From Candidatus Saccharimonadales bacterium (GTDB lineage Bacteria > Patescibacteriota > Saccharimonadia > Saccharimonadales > SZUA-47), in assembly GCA_038211855.1 (NCBI GenBank), contig JBBQVE010000001.1, positions 95,309-159,308 on the forward strand: a stretch of 64,000 nucleotides of DNA. The letters are read 5' to 3'. The position numbers and the translations under genes were made by a program. Of the stretch, positions 15,874-46,693 are shown piece by piece; within the stretch, counting starts at the first letter, position 1, and the number at the start of each line of letters is the position of its first letter. The notes beneath the pieces were generated by a model that was given only the letters and a program-made list of their open reading frames with translations, was not told where the DNA came from and did not search any database.

Positions 15874-15950
15874 ACCGGCGTAACTCAACTGGATAGAGCG
15901 CGTGATTGGCTTTCGCGAAGATGTCGGTTCGAATCCGACCGCTGGTACCA
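15874..15950 (+). tRNA. Atypical tRNA-like gene, anticodon GGC (nominally Ala), encoded CCA
   Basis: Hand-folded cloverleaf: acceptor ACCGGCG/CGCTGGT, T arm GTCGG-TTCGAAT-CCGAC, anticodon arm CGTGA-TTGGCTT-TCGCG. Deviations are A10.C25, U37, and G4:U69 in place of G3:U70. Confidence 0.6.
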
Positions 15951-16156
15951 CCCCTAACGGATGGTAGCAACCCCTTAAAACGTAAGAGACCCGTGATGGG
16001 TCTCCGCGTGATTGGCTGTTTCTATTTTAGCACGGCTAGTCTAAGGGTGCACAGCATTTTCGCATGTGCTAATTAAATGTGCTTAATAATATGCAAAATA
16101 AGTATTACATTAACACCTTACAAAATGCCTTGCATAGCAAGTATATTTGTGATACA

Positions 16157-17011
16157 ATGAAGGTAATGAAGTACACGTTTGCTCAGTTCAAAAAAGAATA
16201 TCCGAACGACTCAGCATGTCTAAAATCTGTCCTAGAAAATCGCTACGGTAACACATGCCCTCGTTGCGGTGTTGTGGGCGTTAAATGGCACCCTATCACG
16301 GGTCGTAAAGGTTTTGTCTGCTCTGAGTGCGACCGCCATATCTACCCGCTTGCAGACACTATATTTCGGAAGTCAGAAACTAGTCTTTGGAACTGGTTTT
16401 ACGCCATTTACCTGTTCTCAGTCGCTAAAAACGGTGTAAGTGCCAAAGAGCTAGAACGGCATCTCGGCTGTAGCTACAAGACGGCGTGGCGTATGGCTAA
16501 ACAGATTCGCTTGCTCATGGAAGTTAATGGTAGCGACCCACTAGACGGTGCTGTAGAAATTGATGAAACATATATTGGTGGTCGCCGTAAACTTGCTCAG
16601 AAGTTCAATAACAAAAGCATCGTATTTGGCATGGTTGAACGTGACGGTCAGATAAAGTCTATGCATGTTAAAAGTGCGGGCAGTCGTGTTTTATTACCTG
16701 TAATTATCAAAGATATTGCACCTACAGCGAGTGTTCATAGTGATGAATGGGGAGCATACCGAACTTTACCTAAACTAGGCTACAGTCATACAACCGTAAA
16801 CCACAGTAAACTAGAGTATGTACGTGGATCGGCTCACACAAACACCATAGAGGGCTATTGGTCACAGCTCAAGCGCTCCGTGGACGGTACATATCACTCA
16901 GTATCGCCTAAATACTTACAGCAATACCTGAACGAGTTCTCGTTCCGCTACAATCTCAGAGGAATTGCTATTTGCCCTGTTCTTTTGGAACGGGCTGGGA
17001 AGCCTTTTTAA
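16157..17011 (+). CDS. IS1595-family (ISXO2-like) transposase
   Basis: N-terminal zinc ribbon CPRCG...CSEC, then a DDE domain (EIDETYIGG...HSDEWGAY...TNTIEGYW). The likely start is ATG 16166, 7 nt after TGaTACAAT; the track ORF starts at 16079. Confidence 0.9.
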   Translation: MKVMKYTFAQFKKEYPNDSACLKSVLENRYGNTCPRCGVVGVKWHPITGRKGFVCSECDRHIYPLADTIFRKSETSLWNWFYAIYLFSVAKNGVSAKELERHLGCSYKTAWRMAKQIRLLMEVNGSDPLDGAVEIDETYIGGRRKLAQKFNNKSIVFGMVERDGQIKSMHVKSAGSRVLLPVIIKDIAPTASVHSDEWGAYRTLPKLGYSHTTVNHSKLEYVRGSAHTNTIEGYWSQLKRSVDGTYHSVSPKYLQQYLNEFSFRYNLRGIAICPVLLERAGKPF

Positions 17012-33322: not shown

Positions 33323-33398
33323 AGGGGCGTAGCTCAGCTGGTAGAGTACCGGTCTCCAAAACCGATGGTCGCAGGTTCGATCCCTGTCGCCCCTGCCA
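33323..33398 (+). tRNA. tRNA-Trp (CCA)
   Basis: AGGGGCG acceptor, anticodon loop CTCCAAA, T arm GCAGG-TTCGATC-CCTGT, encoded CCA. Confidence 0.95.
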
Positions 33399-33492
33399 TA
33401 AGCATTTTGACCTCTGTAAAGAAAGAGCATATTTTATTGTTACTGTAAGCGGCGAATCGTAAAATATAAAAAAGCTTGTATAGTACGTATAA

Positions 33493-34149
33493 ATGGGACG
33501 TAATAAATCTAAGTCCTCAAGGTATTCCGACCTGTTAAAGCATGCCGAAAGATGGGCGCAGCAATTTAACGATGGACTACTGAGCGTTCCCGACGACGTG
33601 GGTGACGCGCATATCGTGTACTCCATTTTTAACGGTGATGATAAAGCGATTCTACGACGACATGTTGATTCGCTGGCCAATAAATGGCGACTACAAAGAG
33701 GCGGTTCGGCAGTAATACAAATAACATGTAATCCGAGTATCGATGACCTAAAAACTATTGTTCAGGACCACACAGTATCTACATTGGCTTTTGTGGGCCA
33801 TGGATCACTTGGTGCATGGTGGCGATACGATGCAAAAGTACACTCAGCCATTTCTTGGTATGATTTTGCGACTATGTCGACGCATCTCAAACAAGGTACT
33901 GTCGAACAGAGAACGTGTGCTTCTTCCGCCGACTCAAAGACTGTACGTCTTCCGGTCGGTACATTCATGGTGTCGGACCAAAGAAATGTGATAGCACCAG
34001 TTGGATACGCCCTAGGCGGTTGTGCTGGTTCTGATGAGTTTGAAGATGTACTGCGCCCCGTCTTTGTAAACGAAGTTAATACGCCCTCAGATCTCATATC
34101 TCAAGTTCATGATAGAGTCCGTTTAGTTCAGCATCTAGGAGCTGAATAG
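33493..34149 (+). CDS. Hypothetical protein (218 aa), cassette 1
   Basis: ORF only; contains an FVGHGSLG motif of unknown meaning. Confidence 0.5.
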   Translation: MGRNKSKSSRYSDLLKHAERWAQQFNDGLLSVPDDVGDAHIVYSIFNGDDKAILRRHVDSLANKWRLQRGGSAVIQITCNPSIDDLKTIVQDHTVSTLAFVGHGSLGAWWRYDAKVHSAISWYDFATMSTHLKQGTVEQRTCASSADSKTVRLPVGTFMVSDQRNVIAPVGYALGGCAGSDEFEDVLRPVFVNEVNTPSDLISQVHDRVRLVQHLGAE

Positions 34150-34158
34150 ACTCCTCGC

Positions 34159-34192
34159 AAAAGTTCGAAGAGCGTCCGCTAGGGGCTGCCAA
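34159..34192 (+). repeat. Cassette-end repeat, copy 1 (AAAAGTTCGAAGAGCGTCCGCTAGGGGCTGCCAA)
   Basis: One of four near-identical copies, starting 9 nt after the stop codon. Confidence 0.9.
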
Positions 34193-34199
34193 GCATAAG

Positions 34200-34225
34200 C
34201 ACTTTGCGAAAGCAAAGTGTTTTTG
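34200..34225 (+). terminator. Terminator hairpin
   Basis: CACTTTGC-GAAA-GCAAAGTG followed by TTTTTG. Confidence 0.75.
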
Positions 34226-34242
34226 TTTGCTATTATTAAGTT

Positions 34243-34476
34243 ATGGAAAAGACTCAAATAGCACAAATTGCTTTAGAAAAATTGCAATTTATTAGTATCG
34301 AGGAAGCCGAAAGAAACTTAGTGCTCGTTGAAGGGGTCGGCTACAGTTGTTATAATCCCGAACTTAGAGGTACTTCAGGAATCTTTGGATTTGATGGTGG
34401 ATTTCTTATGTATGGCGGAATGAATGCAACGACAGAAGATGCGATTGAATCATACAAACAAGGCCGTCGTTCGTAG
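34243..34476 (+). CDS. Hypothetical protein (77 aa), cassette 2
   Basis: TGcTATTAT lies 6 nt before the ATG, implying a leaderless transcript. Confidence 0.5.
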   Translation: MEKTQIAQIALEKLQFISIEEAERNLVLVEGVGYSCYNPELRGTSGIFGFDGGFLMYGGMNATTEDAIESYKQGRRS

Positions 34477-34479
34477 CTC

Positions 34480-34513
34480 AAAAGTTCGAAGAGCGTCCAC
34501 TAGGGGCTGCCAA
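34480..34513 (+). repeat. Cassette-end repeat, copy 2
   Basis: AAAAGTTCGAAGAGCGTCCACTAGGGGCTGCCAA, starting 3 nt after the stop codon. Confidence 0.9.
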
Positions 34514-34531
34514 TCCGCTTATGCTTAAAAT

Positions 34532-34555
34532 GACTCTGTAAAAGGAGTCTTTTTT
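34532..34555 (+). terminator. Terminator hairpin
   Basis: GACTC-TGTAAAAG-GAGTC followed by TTTTTT. Confidence 0.65.
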
Positions 34556-34594
34556 ACTTCAGTCGAATAACCCCAAAAATGGTATAATTAGGGT

Positions 34595-34843
34595 ATGAAT
34601 GATGACCAATTCACAAAACTCTTTAAATACATGACTGAACGTTTTGATGAAATTGATAAAAAGTTAGACTCGAAAGCCTCACAAGATAGTTTAAATAAGT
34701 TAATAAACACTTTGGATGGGTTTGTAAAACGACTTGATGATAACGAGACGGAACAGTCAGCACGCGATGCACAGTTTGATCGACTACTTGAATGGGCACG
34801 TGAAGTTTCAAAGAAAACTGGTATTCCTCTTAGGAATCTTTAG
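34595..34843 (+). CDS. Hypothetical coiled-coil protein (82 aa), cassette 3
   Basis: TGgTATAAT lies 6 nt before the ATG, implying a leaderless transcript. Confidence 0.55.
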   Translation: MNDDQFTKLFKYMTERFDEIDKKLDSKASQDSLNKLINTLDGFVKRLDDNETEQSARDAQFDRLLEWAREVSKKTGIPLRNL

Positions 34844-34844
34844 T

Positions 34845-34879
34845 AAAAGTTGCGAAATACGTCCGCTAAGGGCTGCCAA
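34845..34879 (+). repeat. Cassette-end repeat, copy 3 (diverged)
   Basis: AAAAGTTGCGAAATACGTCCGCTAAGGGCTGCCAA, starting 1 nt after the stop codon. Confidence 0.85.
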
Positions 34880-34919
34880 ATTGCTTATGCCTTAAATGAA
34901 CCTCGTTTGTGAGGTTCAT

Positions 34920-35477
34920 TTAATAATAACTAACTGACCTACGTGCGTCTGTCTGATCCCTAAAAATGTGAGGCTGACTATGATCAAAAATAAGTAGGTC
35001 GCCTTCGTTTAATGTTGTTCTCAGGGCTTGTGTTGGTGGTGATAGTTGGTCACTATCGATTTGCCCTCGTTCGAATAGGTATTCAGCTACATCGTGATAA
35101 GGTATGACATCACCTATAAATCCTGAATATTTTGACCCAACTAAGATAGCAGCTTCCACGCTACCGGCTACTGTGTGATGGAGCGTGACACTATTTCTAC
35201 TCCCAGTATCGGTATGTATTTGTGTACCTTTTACTCCACCCCATTCGTCAGACTCGCGCTCTTGGGTTCGCTTAGTACTAAACATACAGTTCATACAACT
35301 TTCTAACTCCTGGATACTTACTCCACGTACTGCATATGCGCCATAAGATTGCCTCTTACCTCGTCGAGCCTTACCTATTGCATCTAGCAGTTCGGGGATT
35401 TGATCATGGTCAAAATCTTCCACAGGCTCGAAATTCACCGTAATTAGTTTTTCAGGGTTTGAGACAAGTTGTGTCAT
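34920..35477 (-). CDS. Hypothetical protein, possibly a 2OG-Fe(II)-oxygenase/cupin-like fold, cassette 4 (reverse orientation)
   Basis: IHTDTG...TLHH and GDLLIFDHSQPH resemble an HxD...H facial triad. The assignment is weak. Confidence 0.4.
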   Translation of the reverse strand: MTQLVSNPEKLITVNFEPVEDFDHDQIPELLDAIGKARRGKRQSYGAYAVRGVSIQELESCMNCMFSTKRTQERESDEWGGVKGTQIHTDTGSRNSVTLHHTVAGSVEAAILVGSKYSGFIGDVIPYHDVAEYLFERGQIDSDQLSPPTQALRTTLNEGDLLIFDHSQPHIFRDQTDARRSVSYY

Positions 35478-35514
35478 TAATGCTATTTTACAATATCTAT
35501 AAGATATATACAGT

Positions 35515-35544
35515 AGTTCGAAGAACGTCCGCTAGGGGCTGCCA
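35515..35544 (+). repeat. Cassette-end repeat, copy 4
   Basis: AGTTCGAAGAACGTCCGCTAGGGGCTGCCA, closing the islet. Confidence 0.85.
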
Positions 35545-35591: not shown

Positions 35592-36443
35592 TTAAGGTAG
35601 CCAATCTTCTAAAAGTTCGGTGTGCAAACCAGCGGCTTTTTCAGCGTTTAAAAAAGACTGCATGTCTTTGGCGAATTCGGGTCGGAAATGCATCAAGACA
35701 ATATCACCTGGTTTTAATGTGTGACCAATTTGGTATTGCATAGAACCGCCGTTCGCTTTAGCTATCCACAGAACGACAGCTTTCATGCCACAAGCTGCCG
35801 CGGCTCGCTGCGTATCGGTATTGTAGTTGCCGCCAGGTGGTCGGAAGATATTTGGCCGCCTTCCAAACTGCTGAAACTGTAAATCTGCTTCACCACAGAT
35901 TTCTTGTTTTTGGTCAGCATAATTTAAGTTTGAAAGTAGTTTATGATCAATCGTATGATCCTCTACTAATGAACCGGCCGTCACAAAGTCTTTAAAAAAT
36001 GACGAGTTGTCTTTTATGAATCGATTCGCTAAAAAGAGCGAGGCTTTTATGCCATTATCCTTCATCATCTGCAGCTCAAATGCCTGTTTGTTGGCGCCAT
36101 CATCCATACCCAAAAAGACCACTGGTTCCTTGGTCGCCAAACGAATAATTACAGGAGCAAGACCTTTCGTGATGGGCGGAATAGATACATCATGCGTGAT
36201 CGCTGGAACAGCTACCGTTTCTGGTACGGTGGCATTGGCAGGCTTCAAGGGCTCTTCTGCTGTATCCGTTCGTGCACTGACAGGAGATTTACTAGCGGAG
36301 ACAGTAGTCTGGTGCGGACGAATCCAAACAGAATAAGCTCCCGCGGATCCAATCACGATTACTAAGATGAGCATAATGGCTGTAAATGACTTTCTACTTC
36401 CCTGAGAAGCAGGCGCTTTGTAAGTCCGGTGTAACATAAGCAT
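35592..36443 (-). CDS. Polysaccharide deacetylase (NodB-homology domain) with an N-terminal TM anchor
   Basis: FLGMDDGANK (TFDDG-like) and HTIDH (HxxxH) motifs. Confidence 0.8.
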   Translation of the reverse strand: MLMLHRTYKAPASQGSRKSFTAIMLILVIVIGSAGAYSVWIRPHQTTVSASKSPVSARTDTAEEPLKPANATVPETVAVPAITHDVSIPPITKGLAPVIIRLATKEPVVFLGMDDGANKQAFELQMMKDNGIKASLFLANRFIKDNSSFFKDFVTAGSLVEDHTIDHKLLSNLNYADQKQEICGEADLQFQQFGRRPNIFRPPGGNYNTDTQRAAAACGMKAVVLWIAKANGGSMQYQIGHTLKPGDIVLMHFRPEFAKDMQSFLNAEKAAGLHTELLEDWLP

Positions 36444-37679: not shown

Positions 37680-38313
37680 GCTGCTATTGGCCTCGATTTC
37701 ACCGCGTCGGAAGGTGTTACTGGAGTCTATGGGGCTAGTTTTTGATGTTATTCCAAGTAAGTTCGAGGAACATTTAGATAATGCCCGCTCGCCACAAGAA
37801 GTTGCTCTGGAGCTCGGCTTCGGAAAAGTTGACGCGGTGGCCAAAGATAATCCTGAAGCCTATGTAGTTGGTGGTGACGCGATTGTGGTGATAGATGGCC
37901 AGCAACTCGAAAAACCAGTCGACGAAGCTGATGCCAAAGATATGTTACATCGTTTAAGTGGCCAGACGCATCAGGTCGTTACATCAGTGATAGTAGTTTG
38001 TATAAACGATGACGTGAGAGAGGGTGTCGTCAGCACGGTCGATGTGACATTTAAACAGCTTTCAGAAGAGTTGATAAATAACTATGTTGCGACTGGTGAC
38101 CCATATGACAAAGCGGGCGGATATGCCCGAGAACATCCACTGCTAAAGCCCTACATCACGACTCATGGTGACTTACATGCCGTCAACGGCCTTTCAACGA
38201 TAGAGTTACGCAAACTCCTTGAAAAGCATGGCATTTTAGTACCGAATGATCAGTCAAAAACAGAGTACTTATTCGAAAACGCACGCCCAACAGACCCTAA
38301 TTATTTAATGTAA
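37669..38313 (+). CDS. maf: Maf-like nucleoside triphosphate pyrophosphatase
   Basis: LLLASISPRRKVLLESMGL...KAGGYA. Confidence 0.9.
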   Translation: MTPKLLLASISPRRKVLLESMGLVFDVIPSKFEEHLDNARSPQEVALELGFGKVDAVAKDNPEAYVVGGDAIVVIDGQQLEKPVDEADAKDMLHRLSGQTHQVVTSVIVVCINDDVREGVVSTVDVTFKQLSEELINNYVATGDPYDKAGGYAREHPLLKPYITTHGDLHAVNGLSTIELRKLLEKHGILVPNDQSKTEYLFENARPTDPNYLM

Positions 38314-39149
38314 GTATCGTGACCAGTACGGATATAGACTTCATATTGTTTGAGTAGTGCGCCTATTTGGCGGGTCGTCTGGCCTAGCACTTTCGGCATT
38401 GGCTCCATTTCGGCTTCAGCGATGCGAGTCGCTAAGTCCACCATCGTCTCACCTGGCAAAAGCTCATAGCCTTCCCTTTTGAGTCTTTCGTTAACATAAC
38501 GTCTGGTCTCATCACCGATAGTCCTAAAGCCAATCGCGTCAATACAATCTACAACACTGAGCACAGCACCAAAATCATGGTCGTTTGGCTCGAGAACAGG
38601 AATTGATCTATTTTTGCGATACGTTGCCAGTTTGTTTTCGGACGGATAATTATCAGCGAGGTTGCGGTGATGACCGTGGTGCGTAACGACGTACAGACCA
38701 ACCTTTTGCTTCATTGACTCGTCGGCTTCAGTGACCGTCAGCATCGCATGTAACAGGTGTAAACTAATCTCAGGATGGCGTCTTTGCTCGGCGCGCATCG
38801 TATCAGATTGGTCAGTATCGCATAGCAAGACAGCGCTATTTATGACTAAATTTGCGCAGCCCCATTTGCCAAAATCATGGCCGATGCCGGCTACTCGTAA
38901 TGTGGCAGCTTCGCGAAGACTAAGATCAGCCTCCCAGGCAACGACTGTGCAGCCGTTGGCGACACGCATAGAATGTGTGTCTACCTCGGGTTCGAGACGA
39001 CGACCACTTTCGGTGCCTTGCTCGCTGAAGGTATGTAATAGTTTTTCGGAATCATGAACAATAGTTAAAGCGTTTACCTCTTGTTCGAATTGCTCAAAAG
39101 TGACCGCCATGCAAGTAGTAGTAATAGCATACACAAAATGATTGCGCAA
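38301..39149 (-). CDS. HD-domain phosphohydrolase
   Basis: GIGHDFGKW and VVTHHGHH...NYP, faintly HD-GYP-like but degenerate. Confidence 0.65.
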   Translation of the reverse strand: MRNHFVYAITTTCMAVTFEQFEQEVNALTIVHDSEKLLHTFSEQGTESGRRLEPEVDTHSMRVANGCTVVAWEADLSLREAATLRVAGIGHDFGKWGCANLVINSAVLLCDTDQSDTMRAEQRRHPEISLHLLHAMLTVTEADESMKQKVGLYVVTHHGHHRNLADNYPSENKLATYRKNRSIPVLEPNDHDFGAVLSVVDCIDAIGFRTIGDETRRYVNERLKREGYELLPGETMVDLATRIAEAEMEPMPKVLGQTTRQIGALLKQYEVYIRTGHDTYIK

Positions 39150-45770: not shown

Positions 45771-45845
45771 TGGAGCCGACACCGAGAGTTGAACTCGGGA
45801 CCCCAATCTTACCATGATTGTGCTCTACCACTGAGCTATGTCGGC
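45771..45845 (-). tRNA. tRNA-Thr (GGU)
   Basis: Minus strand GCCGACA...CAATC-ATGGTAA-GATTG...TGTCGGC-T-CCA. Confidence 0.93.
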
Positions 45846-46420
45846 AATAACCCAACTAGGATATCACGTAACTTCTTATTATGGTAATAAATGGTGACCA
45901 CGCCATATGTGCTTTTTTTACGATAAGTTCCAATAGATCCAGATATTGTGGTGTGTATAGCATAAAATTGTGACGACTTCACAGCAAGCGTATCGCACCA
46001 ATATTTTAAGGCTTGCATCGGATTGATATCCGTAAATATTTGAAGCCCAAAATGAAAATCGTCTTTTTTTACACCATACAATTCAATAAGGAATCGCATA
46101 AATGTGCTAAGCAGTAGTGGATCCGTATTGCCAAGTCGAACACTATATTTGTTAGCTCTCGTGCCCTCCCCCCAATACAAACCGACACCCATACCAAACA
46201 GTTCAGCATCCTTGCGGTTCTTAGGGGGAATAACTGTGAATGGATCACCTGTTGGATTAATTCTTTGATAAACAGCTTCACTTATTGATCGGCGTTTAAT
46301 TCCATATACGTTCATCCAATACGTAACTCGATTTGCAGAGCACCCCAGCAAAACCGAAATCTGTTTAACGGACAATTTCTGCTCATTGTACTGCTTTAGT
46401 AAGTATTCCAGTTCAATCAT
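45836..46420 (-). CDS. HTH plus LAGLIDADG-like homing-endonuclease-family protein (free-standing)
   Basis: N-terminal HTH (SVKQISVLLGCSANRVTYW) and FGMGVGLYWGEGT, which resembles a LAGLIDADG block. The last 10 nt overlap the 5' end of tRNA-Thr(GGU). Confidence 0.5.
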   Translation of the reverse strand: MIELEYLLKQYNEQKLSVKQISVLLGCSANRVTYWMNVYGIKRRSISEAVYQRINPTGDPFTVIPPKNRKDAELFGMGVGLYWGEGTRANKYSVRLGNTDPLLLSTFMRFLIELYGVKKDDFHFGLQIFTDINPMQALKYWCDTLAVKSSQFYAIHTTISGSIGTYRKKSTYGVVTIYYHNKKLRDILVGLLPT

Positions 46421-46520
46421 GGTGGATCTATTGTACTACATAGCTATGGTATACCATGACCTAAAGAGAGGTATGGTTGTAGAAGAGACTTTACTTTGAT
46501 ACAATTGCTCACTGAACGTT

Positions 46521-46595
46521 GCCGAAGTAGCTCAGTGGTAGAGCGGCTGTTTTGTAAACAGCGGGTCGCAGGTTCAAATCCTGTCTTCGGCTCCA
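46521..46595 (+). tRNA. tRNA-Thr (UGU)
   Basis: GCCGAAG acceptor, anticodon loop TTTGTAA, encoded CCA. Confidence 0.93.
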
Positions 46596-46607
46596 TAATT
46601 AAAATGT

Positions 46608-46693
46608 GCAGAGGTAGTGAAGCGGTCAAACACAACAGACTGTAAATCTGTCGGCATTCGCCTTCGAAGGTTCGAATCCTTCCCTCTGCACCA
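46608..46693 (+). tRNA. tRNA-Tyr (GUA), long variable arm
   Basis: GCAGAGG acceptor, ACAGA-CTGTAAA-TCTGT anticodon arm, extra arm, encoded CCA. Confidence 0.93.

What the first reader, a model, noticed from the sequence alone, without database searches (positions are those of the whole stretch)
33399..35544. Four cassette-like units downstream of tRNA-Trp, each closed by the same 31-35 nt repeat with tRNA-3'-end-like termini
- **Copies:** a conserved element (consensus about AAAAGTTCGAAGAGCGTCCGCTAGGGGCTGCCAA) occurs at 34159, 34480, 34845 and 35515.
- **Position:** the first three copies start 1-9 nt after the stop codons of small plus-strand ORFs, and each is followed by its own terminator hairpin. 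The fourth closes a unit whose gene is on the opposite strand. The repeat therefore tracks unit boundaries, not gene orientation.
- **Unit sizes:** about 794, 321, 366 and 665 bp.
- **tRNA-like ends:** the repeat begins with a T-loop-like GTTCGAA and contains TAGGGGC, which matches the 5' acceptor sequence of the adjacent tRNA-Trp. It ends in CTGCCA, identical to that tRNA's 3' terminus.
- **Flanks:** the copy 1 flank (AGCATAAGCACTTTG) resembles the tRNA's own 3' flank (TAAGCATTTTG). Copies 2 and 3 carry the same 8-mer inverted (GCTTATGC).
- **Composition:** the region looks AT-richer than its surroundings, and its ORFs are unknowns with leaderless-type promoters.
- **Interpretation:** this suggests serial site-specific accretion at tRNA-Trp or an integron-like cassette system with a non-canonical recombination site. 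No recombinase is in the window.
Basis: seen in the sequence. Interest (0 to 1): 0.6.

Follow-up and report, generated by a model that had tools for sequence, protein, structure and literature searches.

The report
Serine-recombinase gene-cassette array at tRNA-Trp
The four repeats are attachment sites of a large serine recombinase that targets the end of the tRNA-Trp gene in Saccharibacteria, and they mark an integron-like row of exchangeable single-gene cassettes that I could not find described in the literature I was able to search.

Summary
Four direct copies of a 33-nt block lie downstream of tRNA-Trp, with none expected by chance and no other copy in the 64 kb.

The same element is common in Saccharibacteria. 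I found 405 copies in 136 loci, never in mixed orientation. In all 45 loci that include tRNA-Trp, the array is downstream of it on the same strand.

Near-identical strains lose homology exactly at the CCA of the tRNA or of a repeat. They then carry different or reordered units, so the units are exchangeable modules.

The enzyme is probably a ~496-aa large serine recombinase (LSR) with a rolling-circle Rep gene. It is absent from the window. In related genomes it is the first unit after tRNA-Trp, and its reading frame runs antisense into the tRNA.

Three features fit LSR site rules:
- The T-loop-like GTTCGA lies 5 bp further from the core in the repeat than in the tRNA. That matches the published attP/attB offset.
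- Sister LSRs at tRNA-Arg and tRNA-Asn use the same constant arm with a target-matched last 6 nt.
- Twelve half repeats break right after ...GGGGCT.

The repeat has no RNA structure, and no XerD-like tyrosine recombinase appeared. How single cassettes move is inferred, not shown.

The parts
33323..33398 (+). tRNA-Trp (CCA). Its 3' part, from GTTCGA at 33375 to CT at 33393-33394, is the proposed attB-type left half-site. GCCA (33395-33398) plus the trailer TAAGCATTTTGACC... forms the right half.
   Evidence: ARAGORN and Rfam. In 45 related loci tRNA-Trp heads the array, and homology between genomes ends exactly at its CCA.
33399..34158 (+). Cassette 1 body: tRNA trailer, a -10-like box (33479-33484) and an ORF of 218 aa (33493-34149) of unknown function.
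   Evidence: The same protein is found only in the same strain's Logan contig.
34159..34191 (+). Repeat copy 1 (AAAAGTTCGAAGAGCGTCCGCTAGGGGCTGCCA), a P-type arm. The predicted crossover CT is at 34186-34187.
   Evidence: Logo.
34192..34232 (+). Trailer 1: AGCATAAGCA followed by a terminator hairpin (34197-34222) and a T run. It is the same trailer class that follows tRNA-Trp in other genomes.
34243..34476 (+). Cassette 2 ORF, 77 aa, unknown function. The -10 TATTAT (34231-34236) lies 6 nt before the ATG.
34480..34512 (+). Repeat copy 2 (P-type arm). CT at 34507-34508. It is followed by a GCTTATGC-class trailer and a terminator at 34532-34549.
34595..34843 (+). Cassette 3 ORF, 82 aa. An extended -10 TGGTATAAT (34580-34588) lies 6 nt before the ATG. 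The ORF belongs to a cassette family found in 8 other arrays.
34845..34878 (+). Repeat copy 3, the GTTGCGAA variant of the P-type arm. CT at 34873-34874. A hairpin follows at 34888-34913.
   Evidence: the 30-nt variant makes up 74 of 291 copies.
34920..35477 (-). Cassette 4 ORF, 185 aa, unknown function, on the strand opposite to the repeat.
   Evidence: In the collected arrays 17% of ORFs are on the opposite strand.
35512..35544 (+). Repeat copy 4 (P-type arm), the last site of the array. CT at 35539-35540. It is followed by the 3' end of a conserved polysaccharide deacetylase gene (35592-36443, - strand).

Best explanation
**What the repeat is.** The 33-nt repeat is the phage-type (P) left arm of the attachment site of a family of large serine recombinases (LSRs). 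These enzymes integrate small Rep-encoding elements at the 3' end of tRNA genes in Saccharibacteria, here at tRNA-Trp.

**How the sites are laid out.**
- The tRNA's own 3' end supplies the bacterial-type (B) left arm.
- Both arms share the core CTGCCA.
- Strand exchange is predicted at the CT.
- The GCCA that completes the tRNA, together with the trailer (terminator plus the next promoter), therefore belongs to the downstream unit.

**What a unit is.** Each unit consists of trailer, promoter, one gene and a P arm. The window holds four such units and no recombinase. It is a cassette array built earlier, or serviced in trans.

**Inferred mechanism.**
- An LSR-Rep element with attP = P+P' integrates at the tRNA, which is attB = B+B'.
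- Every 'P arm + trailer' in the array is an attR-type site.
- Excision between attL and a nearer or farther attR-type site would therefore leave cassettes behind or pick them up.
- In that way the element would ferry single genes between genomes.

**Shown.** The sites; their strict polarity; the anchoring at tRNA-Trp; exchange of units between strains; the link to the LSR; and the attP/attB-like 5-bp offset.

**Inferred.** That the LSR cuts at CT, and that it is what moves single cassettes.
For: 1. **Distribution.** There are 405 copies in 136 Saccharibacteria or Patescibacteria loci, never in mixed orientation. tRNA-Trp lies upstream on the same strand in all 45 loci that include it.

2. **Units differ between close strains, with junctions at the core.**
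   - L044/L093: flanks are 96.6% identical up to the tRNA CCA, then the cassettes differ or are reordered.
   - L077/L133: 99.2% identity ends 6 nt after a repeat's CCA.
   - L034/L120: 99.4% identity ends at the CCA.
   - L039/L093: a clean 1.7-kb indel lies between two repeats.
   - L003/L010: the flanks are 81% identical, but one 363-bp cassette is 98.3% identical.
   - All.

3. **Cassettes after the tRNA and after repeats are interchangeable.** Their homology starts at CTGCCA. The trailer classes are the same after the tRNA and after repeats.

4. **LSR association.**
   - LSR genes with Resolvase, Recombinase and Zn-ribbon domains.
   - The AlphaFold model matches SPbeta, Bxb1, phiC31 and LI integrases at E 3e-19 to 3e-12.
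   - They form the first unit after tRNA-Trp in L021, L048, L061, L141, L142 and L145-148. The reading frame runs antisense into the tRNA, and each comes with a REP_ORF2-G2P Rep.

5. **The 5-bp offset.** GTTCGA lies 24 nt from the CCA end in the tRNA. In the repeat it lies 29 nt away (217 copies) or 30 nt (74 copies). The best alignment needs exactly a 5-nt gap. Rutherford et al. 2013 show that the zinc-ribbon-domain motif sits 5 bp closer to the centre in attB than in attP (PMC3783163).

6. **Sister LSRs use the same arm.** Those at tRNA-Arg and tRNA-Asn have far-end sites with the same constant arm and a last 6 nt matching their own tRNA (GTACCA, GAGCCA).

7. **Half repeats.** About twelve (15 flagged, three of them 1-nt-deletion artefacts) are intact through ...GGGGCT and then unrelated. 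G never follows.

8. **The P arm travels with the upstream gene.** In clean pairs the cassette's own arm has 0-2 mismatches and the neighbouring arm has 2-7.
Against: - **No LSR in the window.** None was found in the 64 kb, so activity at this locus is unproven.
- **No dyad symmetry.** The right half-sites show none with the left arm. They are weakly conserved and fall into several classes.
- **Non-canonical junctions.** Three P+P' junctions lie next to or inside arrays (L032, L041, L075). Canonical attP x attB logic does not predict these.
- **Homologous recombination remains possible.** The shared repeat plus trailer is about 80-100 nt long and could shuffle units without any LSR.
- **Arrays seem specific to tRNA-Trp.** In the few tRNA-Arg and tRNA-Asn loci I saw, there was a single element and no array.
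- **Some arrays lack a nearby tRNA-Trp.** In several loci none lies within 6-8 kb upstream.
- **No experiment exists.**
Confidence: 0.72

Rival explanations
1. The repeats are inert scars. Each would be the attR left by a whole LSR element that integrated at tRNA-Trp and then decayed to one gene. Cassettes would not move individually.
For: P' arm remnants without an LSR gene lie inside arrays in L041 and L075. LSR elements are always the unit nearest the tRNA. The window has no LSR.
Against: The 33-nt block is highly conserved across about 300 unique copies and several genera, with sharp edges. Units are compact, with a median of 621 bp and one gene each, and the stop codon is often inside the repeat. 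Single cassettes are shared at 94-99% identity between genomes whose flanks differ, and at different array positions. After a canonical integration no attB remains, so repeated integration would still need a non-canonical step.
Confidence: 0.12
2. Units are shuffled by ordinary homologous recombination between the roughly 80-100-nt repeat-plus-trailer modules. The LSR would only bring in its own element.
For: Indel end points are ambiguous within the repeat (L039/L093). The trailers are long and similar.
Against: The junction between the tRNA and the first cassette shares only CTGCCA plus the trailer. Half repeats break at one fixed position after CT in 12 independent copies. Polarity is strictly uniform. 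The cassette's own P arm stays with the upstream gene.
Confidence: 0.06
3. The repeat acts as RNA. It would be a tRNA-like 3' tag or processing signal at the end of the cassette mRNAs.
For: 79% of copies lie at or near the stop of a same-strand ORF and upstream of a terminator. The repeat ends in GCCA like a tRNA.
Against: There is no consensus structure: alifold returns no pairs and the mean z-score is -0.27, with window copies at z 0 to +0.5. There is no Rfam match. 17% of array ORFs are on the other strand while the repeat never flips. The same arm closes LSR elements whose adjacent gene is antisense.
Confidence: 0.03
4. It is a true integron or another tyrosine-recombinase system, with the integrase encoded elsewhere.
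For: There are co-oriented arrays of small cassettes, diverse and mostly unknown cargo, and stop codons inside the site.
Against: Ten mid-size window proteins were scanned against Pfam and none is an integrase. The site has no attC-like inverted repeats or fold. Each cassette has its own promoter and terminator.
Confidence: 0.03
5. The Rep (HUH) protein of the elements, not the LSR, creates the arrays. It would do so by rolling-circle read-through, using the repeat as a nick or termination site.
For: A REP_ORF2-G2P gene accompanies every LSR of this family that I inspected.
Against: The LSR gene, not rep, abuts the site and reads through it. The 5-bp attP/attB offset and the tRNA-matched 6-nt core are features of LSR sites. 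The core contains no hairpin.
Confidence: 0.04

Closest known systems
SCC / SCCmec composite islands of staphylococci (CcrAB or CcrC large serine recombinases at the 3' end of rlmH/orfX)
   Same: A large serine recombinase inserts elements at the 3' end of a conserved gene without destroying it. Successive elements pile up in tandem, each bounded by direct repeats of the integration site. Units that lack a recombinase sit next to units that carry one (reviews and examples listed; the rest from my own knowledge).
   Different: The target is a tRNA gene rather than rlmH. Units here are mostly single genes (median 621 bp) rather than elements of tens of kb, with up to 10 sites per 8 kb. The repeated site is a 33-nt P-type arm that shares only 6 nt with the target. 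The LSR is only 12-19% identical to solved LSRs, and homology to Ccr was not tested. The elements also carry a rolling-circle Rep.
Integrons (IntI tyrosine recombinase, attI, attC cassette arrays)
   Same: Both are one-directional arrays of small, mostly single-gene cassettes of diverse and often unknown function, anchored at one primary site. In both, the site lies at the 3' end of each gene and often contains its stop codon.
   Different: There is no IntI and no folded attC with R''/L''-L'/R' symmetry. The site appears to be read as plain duplex sequence. Cassettes carry their own promoter-like box and terminator instead of relying on Pc. The anchor is a tRNA gene.
Phage large serine integrases (Listeria A118/LI, Bxb1, phiC31, SPbeta)
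   Same: The domain architecture and fold are the same. The attP-type arm has its outer motif 5 bp further from the centre than the attB-type arm. Only a short core is shared by the two partner sites.
   Different: Those enzymes have one attB and one attP and leave no arrays. The right half-sites here show no symmetry with the left. The integrase reading frame crosses the core into the tRNA. The carriers are 4-6.5-kb Rep elements rather than phages, and none was found in IMG/VR.
Accretion and cis-mobilisation of CIMEs by ICESt1/ICESt3 in streptococci (tyrosine integrase at the fda 3' end)
   Same: Integrase-less modules flanked by att sites accumulate next to an autonomous element. They can be excised with it through alternative site pairs (from my own knowledge).
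   Different: That system uses a tyrosine integrase, modules of several kb, and only a few units.
Genomic islands at tRNA genes (tyrosine integrases; duplication of the tRNA 3' end)
   Same: Both target the 3' end of a tRNA gene and regenerate the tRNA after insertion.
   Different: Those islands are flanked by direct repeats identical to 15-50 nt of the tRNA. Here only 6 nt are shared, and the enzyme is a serine recombinase.

Membership tests
Attachment site of a large serine recombinase (LSR) | An LSR gene lies directly next to the site in integrated elements | tested here: met
   In L021, L048, L061, L141, L142 and L145-148 the LSR is the first gene after the tRNA-Trp CCA and reads antisense into the tRNA. 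In L032 it reads into a repeat. This is not met in the window itself, which has no LSR in 64 kb.
Attachment site of a large serine recombinase (LSR) | The protein has a resolvase catalytic domain, a recombinase domain, and a zinc ribbon with a coiled coil | tested here: met
   Pfam Resolvase, Recombinase and Zn_ribbon_recom. The AlphaFold2 model (pLDDT 81) matches full-length SPbeta, Bxb1, phiC31 and LI integrases by Foldseek at E 3e-19 to 3e-12.
Attachment site of a large serine recombinase (LSR) | The outer (zinc-ribbon-domain) motif lies 5 bp further from the centre in attP-type than in attB-type half-sites | tested here: met
   GTTCGA lies 24 nt from the CCA end in the tRNA, and 29 nt (217 copies) or 30 nt (74 copies) from it in the repeat. 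The best alignment needs exactly a 5-nt gap. The same holds for the tRNA-Arg, tRNA-Asn and L143 lineages. The rule comes from PMC3783163. That GTTCGA is the motif the protein actually reads is inferred.
Attachment site of a large serine recombinase (LSR) | A short common core with an identical central dinucleotide in both partner sites | tested here: met
   Identity between the P arm and the tRNA is limited to the last 6-7 nt in the Trp, Arg and Asn systems. Twelve half repeats break right after CT. Actual cleavage at CT was not tested.
Attachment site of a large serine recombinase (LSR) | Imperfect dyad symmetry between the left and right half-sites | tested here: not met
   Conservation drops after the CCA. 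The trailers fall into several classes with no inverted copy of the left arm. The P' arm has only a TTACAA that loosely mirrors TTCGAA.
Attachment site of a large serine recombinase (LSR) | Recombination between the sites depends on the LSR | not testable with these tools
   This needs an in vitro or in vivo assay.
Integron | An IntI tyrosine integrase lies next to attI | tested here: not met
   No XerD-like protein was found in about 1 Mb of array loci and the window. None was found among ten mid-size window proteins.
Integron | attC sites with inverted repeats that fold as single strands | tested here: not met
   The repeat has no consensus pairs, and its folding energy is no better than that of shuffled sequence.
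Integron | An array of co-oriented cassettes, each ending in the site | tested here: met
Integron | Promoterless cassettes expressed from a common Pc promoter | tested here: not met
   Each unit has a terminator hairpin and a -10-like box 6-8 nt before its ATG.
SCC-type composite island | Integration at the 3' end of rlmH by Ccr recombinases | tested here: not met
   The target here is tRNA-Trp. Homology of this LSR to Ccr was not tested.
SCC-type composite island | Tandem units separated by direct repeats of the integration site, including units without a recombinase | tested here: met
REP / MITE-like dispersed repeat | Dispersed genome-wide, in both orientations, and palindromic | tested here: not met
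   The window has only the 4 clustered copies. No locus of 136 has mixed orientation. The repeat has no palindrome or structure.
tRNA-like RNA element (minihelix, t-element) | An acceptor/T-arm-like helix conserved by covariation | tested here: not met
   No Rfam family reaches threshold.
tRNA-targeting island with a tyrosine integrase | Direct repeats identical to at least 15 nt of the tRNA 3' end | tested here: not met
   Only CTGCCA is shared contiguously. With a 5-nt gap the match is 18 of 24.

The most novel reading that the evidence does not exclude
Saccharibacteria would possess a serine-recombinase counterpart of the integron. Small LSR-Rep shuttle elements dock at the 3' end of tRNA-Trp. 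By choosing among the many 'P arm + trailer' sites, they would load and unload single-gene cassettes, building strain-specific gene banks of 10 or more units. The site would be modular: a constant 27-nt protein-binding arm plus a 6-nt core that sets which tRNA is targeted (Trp, Arg or Asn).
Probability: 0.45. Interest if true: 0.85.

Novelty: new variant of a known kind. Interest (0 to 1): 0.78.

Why it matters
**Gene exchange in a poorly understood group.** Saccharibacteria are tiny, host-dependent bacteria with reduced genomes, and little is known about how they exchange genes. This locus type appears to be a major hot spot of variable gene content in the group. I found hundreds of different cassettes. 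NUDIX hydrolases were the most frequent identifiable family (11 of 146 sampled), with a few kinase-, acetyltransferase- and defence-related proteins; most have no match.

**A new kind of cassette system.** If the large serine recombinase does move the cassettes, this would be a cassette-capture system built on a different enzyme class from the integron.

**A natural test case for serine integrases.** The site pairs a constant arm with a 6-nt core matched to a tRNA end. It also shows the attP/attB 5-bp offset in natural sequence. That makes the family a useful test of how serine integrases tell sites apart, a question of practical interest for genome engineering.

**Practical consequence for metagenomics.** The repeats break metagenome assemblies. 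The variable genes beside tRNA-Trp are therefore probably under-recovered in MAGs.

Tried and rejected
- **Known RNA families.** An Rfam scan of the window found only tRNAs and the L10 leader.
- **RNA structure.** Folding and alifold of the repeat gave no structure, so the RNA tag idea is rejected.
- **Viral contigs.** Two DNA patterns and the LSR protein gave no hits in IMG/VR, so no free phage-like form was recovered.
- **Strain variants of the window's own locus.**
  - Exact-protein look-ups found only the same strain in one run (SRR19962015).
  - Its contigs were broken at the repeats and in the same order as the window.
  - The deacetylase is not on record.
- **Function of the four window cassettes.** Pfam, PADLOC and NCBIfam gave nothing above threshold.
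- **Tyrosine recombinase search.** There were no hits.
- **Sequence search of the LSR against PDB.** Only catalytic-domain hits appeared. The fold search was needed to confirm the architecture.
- **Dyad symmetry or a shifted motif in the right half-sites.** Neither was found.
- **Acceptor-stem idea.** I considered that TAGGGGC mimics or pairs with the tRNA acceptor stem. This is rejected because the same arm serves tRNA-Arg.
- **Literature.** Searches for a prior description in Saccharibacteria or CPR found nothing relevant. The library does not hold most subscription-journal papers.


Full report
**1.

- The 19-nt core CGTCCRCTARGGGCTGCCA occurs four times on the + strand, at 34173, 34494, 34860 and 35526. 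No matches appeared in 100 shuffles.
- A profile built from many copies finds nothing else in the 64-kb window.
- tRNA-Trp lies at 33323-33398.
- Three copies start 1-9 nt after the stops of small + strand ORFs. The fourth closes a unit whose ORF is on the - strand.
- Terminator hairpins follow copies 1-3.
- The region has 40-43% GC against about 48% around it.
- The four ORFs have no convincing Pfam, PADLOC or NCBIfam match; cassette 3 has only sub-threshold hits.
- -10-like boxes lie 6-8 nt before each ATG with no Shine-Dalgarno sequence. This is read directly from the sequence.

**2. The repeat is a widespread element of Saccharibacteria, tied to tRNA-Trp**

- Exact-pattern scans found it in 19 Saccharibacteria or Patescibacteria MAG loci, plus three chance hits in other phyla. 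A further 115 metagenome stretches also carry it.
- With a profile search I counted 405 copies in 136 loci. No locus has copies in both orientations.
- In all 45 loci that include a tRNA-Trp gene, the tRNA is upstream of the array on the same strand, 261-6485 bp before the first repeat.
- Unit size has a median of 621 bp, with a 5-95% range of 327-2149 bp. Of array ORFs, 83% share the repeat's strand and 17% do not.
- The logo shows a sharply bounded 33-nt block: AAAAGTTC[G/T]AAG[C/T]TCGTCCACTAGGGGCTGCCA. A weaker AGCATAAGCA follows, and conservation then disappears.
- ORFs often end inside the block, using its TAA or TAG.

**3. The units are exchangeable modules**

Homology between related genomes stops exactly at the CCA of the tRNA or of a repeat:

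- L044/L093: 96.6% identity over 2.3 kb ends at the tRNA CCA. A cassette that is second in one genome lies 4.5 kb into the array of the other.
- L050/L055: 97.6% identity ends at CCA+4, and the shared cassettes sit in different positions.
- L077/L133: 99.2% identity ends at a repeat's CCA+6.
- L034/L120: 99.4% identity ends at the CCA.
- L039/L093: a clean 1.7-kb indel lies between two repeats.
- L003/L010: the flanks are 81% identical, but one 363-bp cassette is 98.3% identical. This points to recent transfer.

Further points:

- A cassette that follows the tRNA in one genome follows a repeat in another, and the homology starts at CTGCCA.
- The same trailer classes follow the tRNA and the repeats.
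- In L007 the two trailers differ by a compensatory change in the hairpin.
- Window cassette 3 belongs to a family present in eight other arrays.

**4. The associated enzyme is a large serine recombinase (LSR)**

- In L021 the first gene after tRNA-Trp is a 496-aa protein with Resolvase, Recombinase and Zn-ribbon domains. Next to it is a REP_ORF2-G2P replication protein.
- Homologues occupy the same position in L048 and L061.
- Starting from the protein instead of the repeat, LSRs that are 70%, 60% and 50% identical all sit antisense on tRNA-Trp. Each has a Rep gene, defence-type cargo and then a repeat array on the tRNA strand.
- The reading frame crosses the junction. The invariant Trp near the C-terminus is the antisense of CCA, and the tail WQGHVESNH... 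is antisense tRNA-Trp.
- An AlphaFold2 model (pLDDT 81) matches full-length SPbeta, Bxb1, phiC31 and Listeria integrases.
- No serine recombinase is present in the window. No tyrosine recombinase was found among ten mid-size window proteins scanned against Pfam.
- No XerD-like protein was found in about 1 Mb of array loci.

**5. The site follows LSR rules**

- *Outer motif offset.* In the tRNA, GTTCGA lies 24 nt from the CCA end. In the repeat it lies 29 nt away (217 copies) or 30 nt (74 copies). The best alignment of repeat to tRNA needs exactly a 5-nt gap.
- *Published rule.* Rutherford et al. showed that the zinc-ribbon-domain motif of attB lies 5 bp closer to the centre than in attP (PMC3783163). 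The repeat therefore looks like a P-type arm and the tRNA end like a B-type arm.
- *Sister subfamilies.* Other LSR subfamilies sit on tRNA-Asn (L149, L150) and tRNA-Arg (L151-153).
  - Their far-end sites carry the same constant arm, with the last 6 nt matching their own tRNA.
  - For Arg the site is AAAAGTTCGAAGTACGTCCACTAGGGG-GTACCA. For Asn it is ...CCACTAAGGG-GAGCCA.
  - The constant arm is therefore a protein-binding element and not a relic of tRNA-Trp. The shared 6 nt is the exchange core.
- *Half repeats.* About twelve (15 flagged, three of them 1-nt-deletion artefacts) are intact through ...GGGGCT and then unrelated, and G never follows.
  - This places the crossover at CT. That is also where the 16-24 and 11-19 motif windows of the Listeria enzyme would put it.
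- *Why every unit ends in GCCA.* GCCA belongs to the right half-site and must be carried by every incoming unit to keep the tRNA intact.
- *Which gene the arm travels with.* In clean cassette pairs the cassette's own P arm has 0-2 mismatches and the upstream neighbour's arm has 2-7. This is modest support.

**6. Proposed mechanism (inferred)**

- The LSR-Rep element (attP = P+P') integrates at the tRNA (attB = B+trailer).
- Every 'P arm + trailer' in the array is an attR-type site.
- Excision between attL and a nearer or farther such site would therefore leave cassettes behind or pick them up.
- This model uses only canonical LSR reactions.
- It does not explain three P+P' junctions at or inside arrays (L032 with an intact LSR; L041 and L075 with remnants).
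  - Those junctions suggest free or tandem forms, a promiscuous enzyme like CcrAB, or homologous recombination.
- The right half-sites show no symmetry with the left arm.
- The window array may be a fossil, or it may be serviced in trans.

**7. Rivals**

- *RNA element.* There is no structure, no Rfam match, and polarity is independent of gene strand.
- *Integron or other tyrosine-recombinase system.* No integrase, no attC fold, and each cassette has its own promoter.
- *Scars only, or homologous recombination only.* Both are possible contributors. They fit poorly with the conservation, the compact units, the fixed breakpoint and the single-cassette sharing.
- *Rep-driven arrays.* The site features point to the LSR.

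**8. Comparison and novelty**

- The closest known case is the SCC composite island of staphylococci. There an LSR targets the 3' end of a conserved gene, and tandem units are separated by site repeats (and my own knowledge).
- In scale and content the arrays resemble integrons.
- I found no description of this system in the searchable literature.
- I rate it a new variant of a known kind.

**9. Cargo**

- Of 453 array ORFs, 382 are non-redundant.
- A sample of 146 shows NUDIX in 11 members, AAA_18 in 3, and GDSL lipase/acylhydrolase (Lipase_GDSL_2, Lipase_GDSL), G5, haloacid-dehalogenase-type (Hydrolase, HAD_2), Ser_hydrolase and NUDIX_2 families in 2 each. GNAT, Ham1, SMODS, Shedu, NERD and SocA each occur once.
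- LSR elements carry Shedu, AAA_15+DUF4276, reverse transcriptase and PycTM genes.

Noticed in passing
window 16079-17011 (+), next to tRNA-Ala 15874-15950: An IS1595-family transposase (DDE_Tnp_IS1595 plus zinc ribbon) lies just downstream of tRNA-Ala. It is the only mobile-element gene found among the ten mid-size window proteins scanned against Pfam.
   Followed up: no
A3 alignment of LSRs (P0001-P0117); loci L149, L150, L151-L153: The C-terminal tails of these recombinases are antisense translations of the tRNA they sit on (W = CCA, ESN/DSN = T-loop). The target tRNA can therefore be read from the protein sequence. Subfamilies target tRNA-Trp, tRNA-Asn and tRNA-Arg.
   Followed up: partly
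L143 (reverse strand 6934, 7513, 10048) and L144: There are three copies of a tRNA-3'-fragment-like site (GTTCCGTGACCTGTAAGCGGAGCCA) with no complete tRNA nearby. One abuts an LSR, and P-type sites ending in GAGCCA lie at the far end. This may be an array of B-type sites.
   Followed up: partly
window 34192-34201, 34516-34523, 34882-34889; trailers in all loci: The 7-8-mer GCATAAGC occurs just after the CCA in either orientation. The AGCATAAGCA form follows 45% of repeats and the GCTTATG form follows 16%. The same two classes follow tRNA-Trp. I have no explanation for the two orientations.
   Followed up: partly
L041 (oriented 951), L075 (oriented 1802), L032 (oriented 1310): A repeat is followed directly by the LSR element's P' arm. 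In L041 and L075 the LSR gene itself is missing. These are either remnants of LSR elements inside arrays or non-canonical insertions.
   Followed up: partly
window 45771-46693; L027, L040, L054, L094, L145: A tRNA-Thr / tRNA-Thr / tRNA-Tyr cluster lies 7-13 kb from tRNA-Trp in the window and in several related genomes. The neighbourhood around the variable locus is therefore conserved.
   Followed up: no
L080 3832-4467 and L136 9967-10602: A small (211-aa) serine recombinase gene lies at the edge of repeat arrays. It is distinct from the 496-aa LSR family.
   Followed up: no
window copies 34173-34191, 34860-34878, 35526-35544: Three of the four window copies have G at CGTCC[G]C, where 96% of all copies have A. 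This is a lineage-specific variant. It suggests either homogenisation within the array or a lineage-specific preference of the enzyme.
   Followed up: no
window 38301-39149 (-): A 282-aa HD-domain protein gives a weak Cas3_HD match (E 3.9e-05). No CRISPR context was examined.
   Followed up: no
L023-L025 (Logan run SRR19962015): The window's own strain is present in a public run, but its contigs end at the repeats. Arrays of this kind fragment short-read assemblies.
   Followed up: partly
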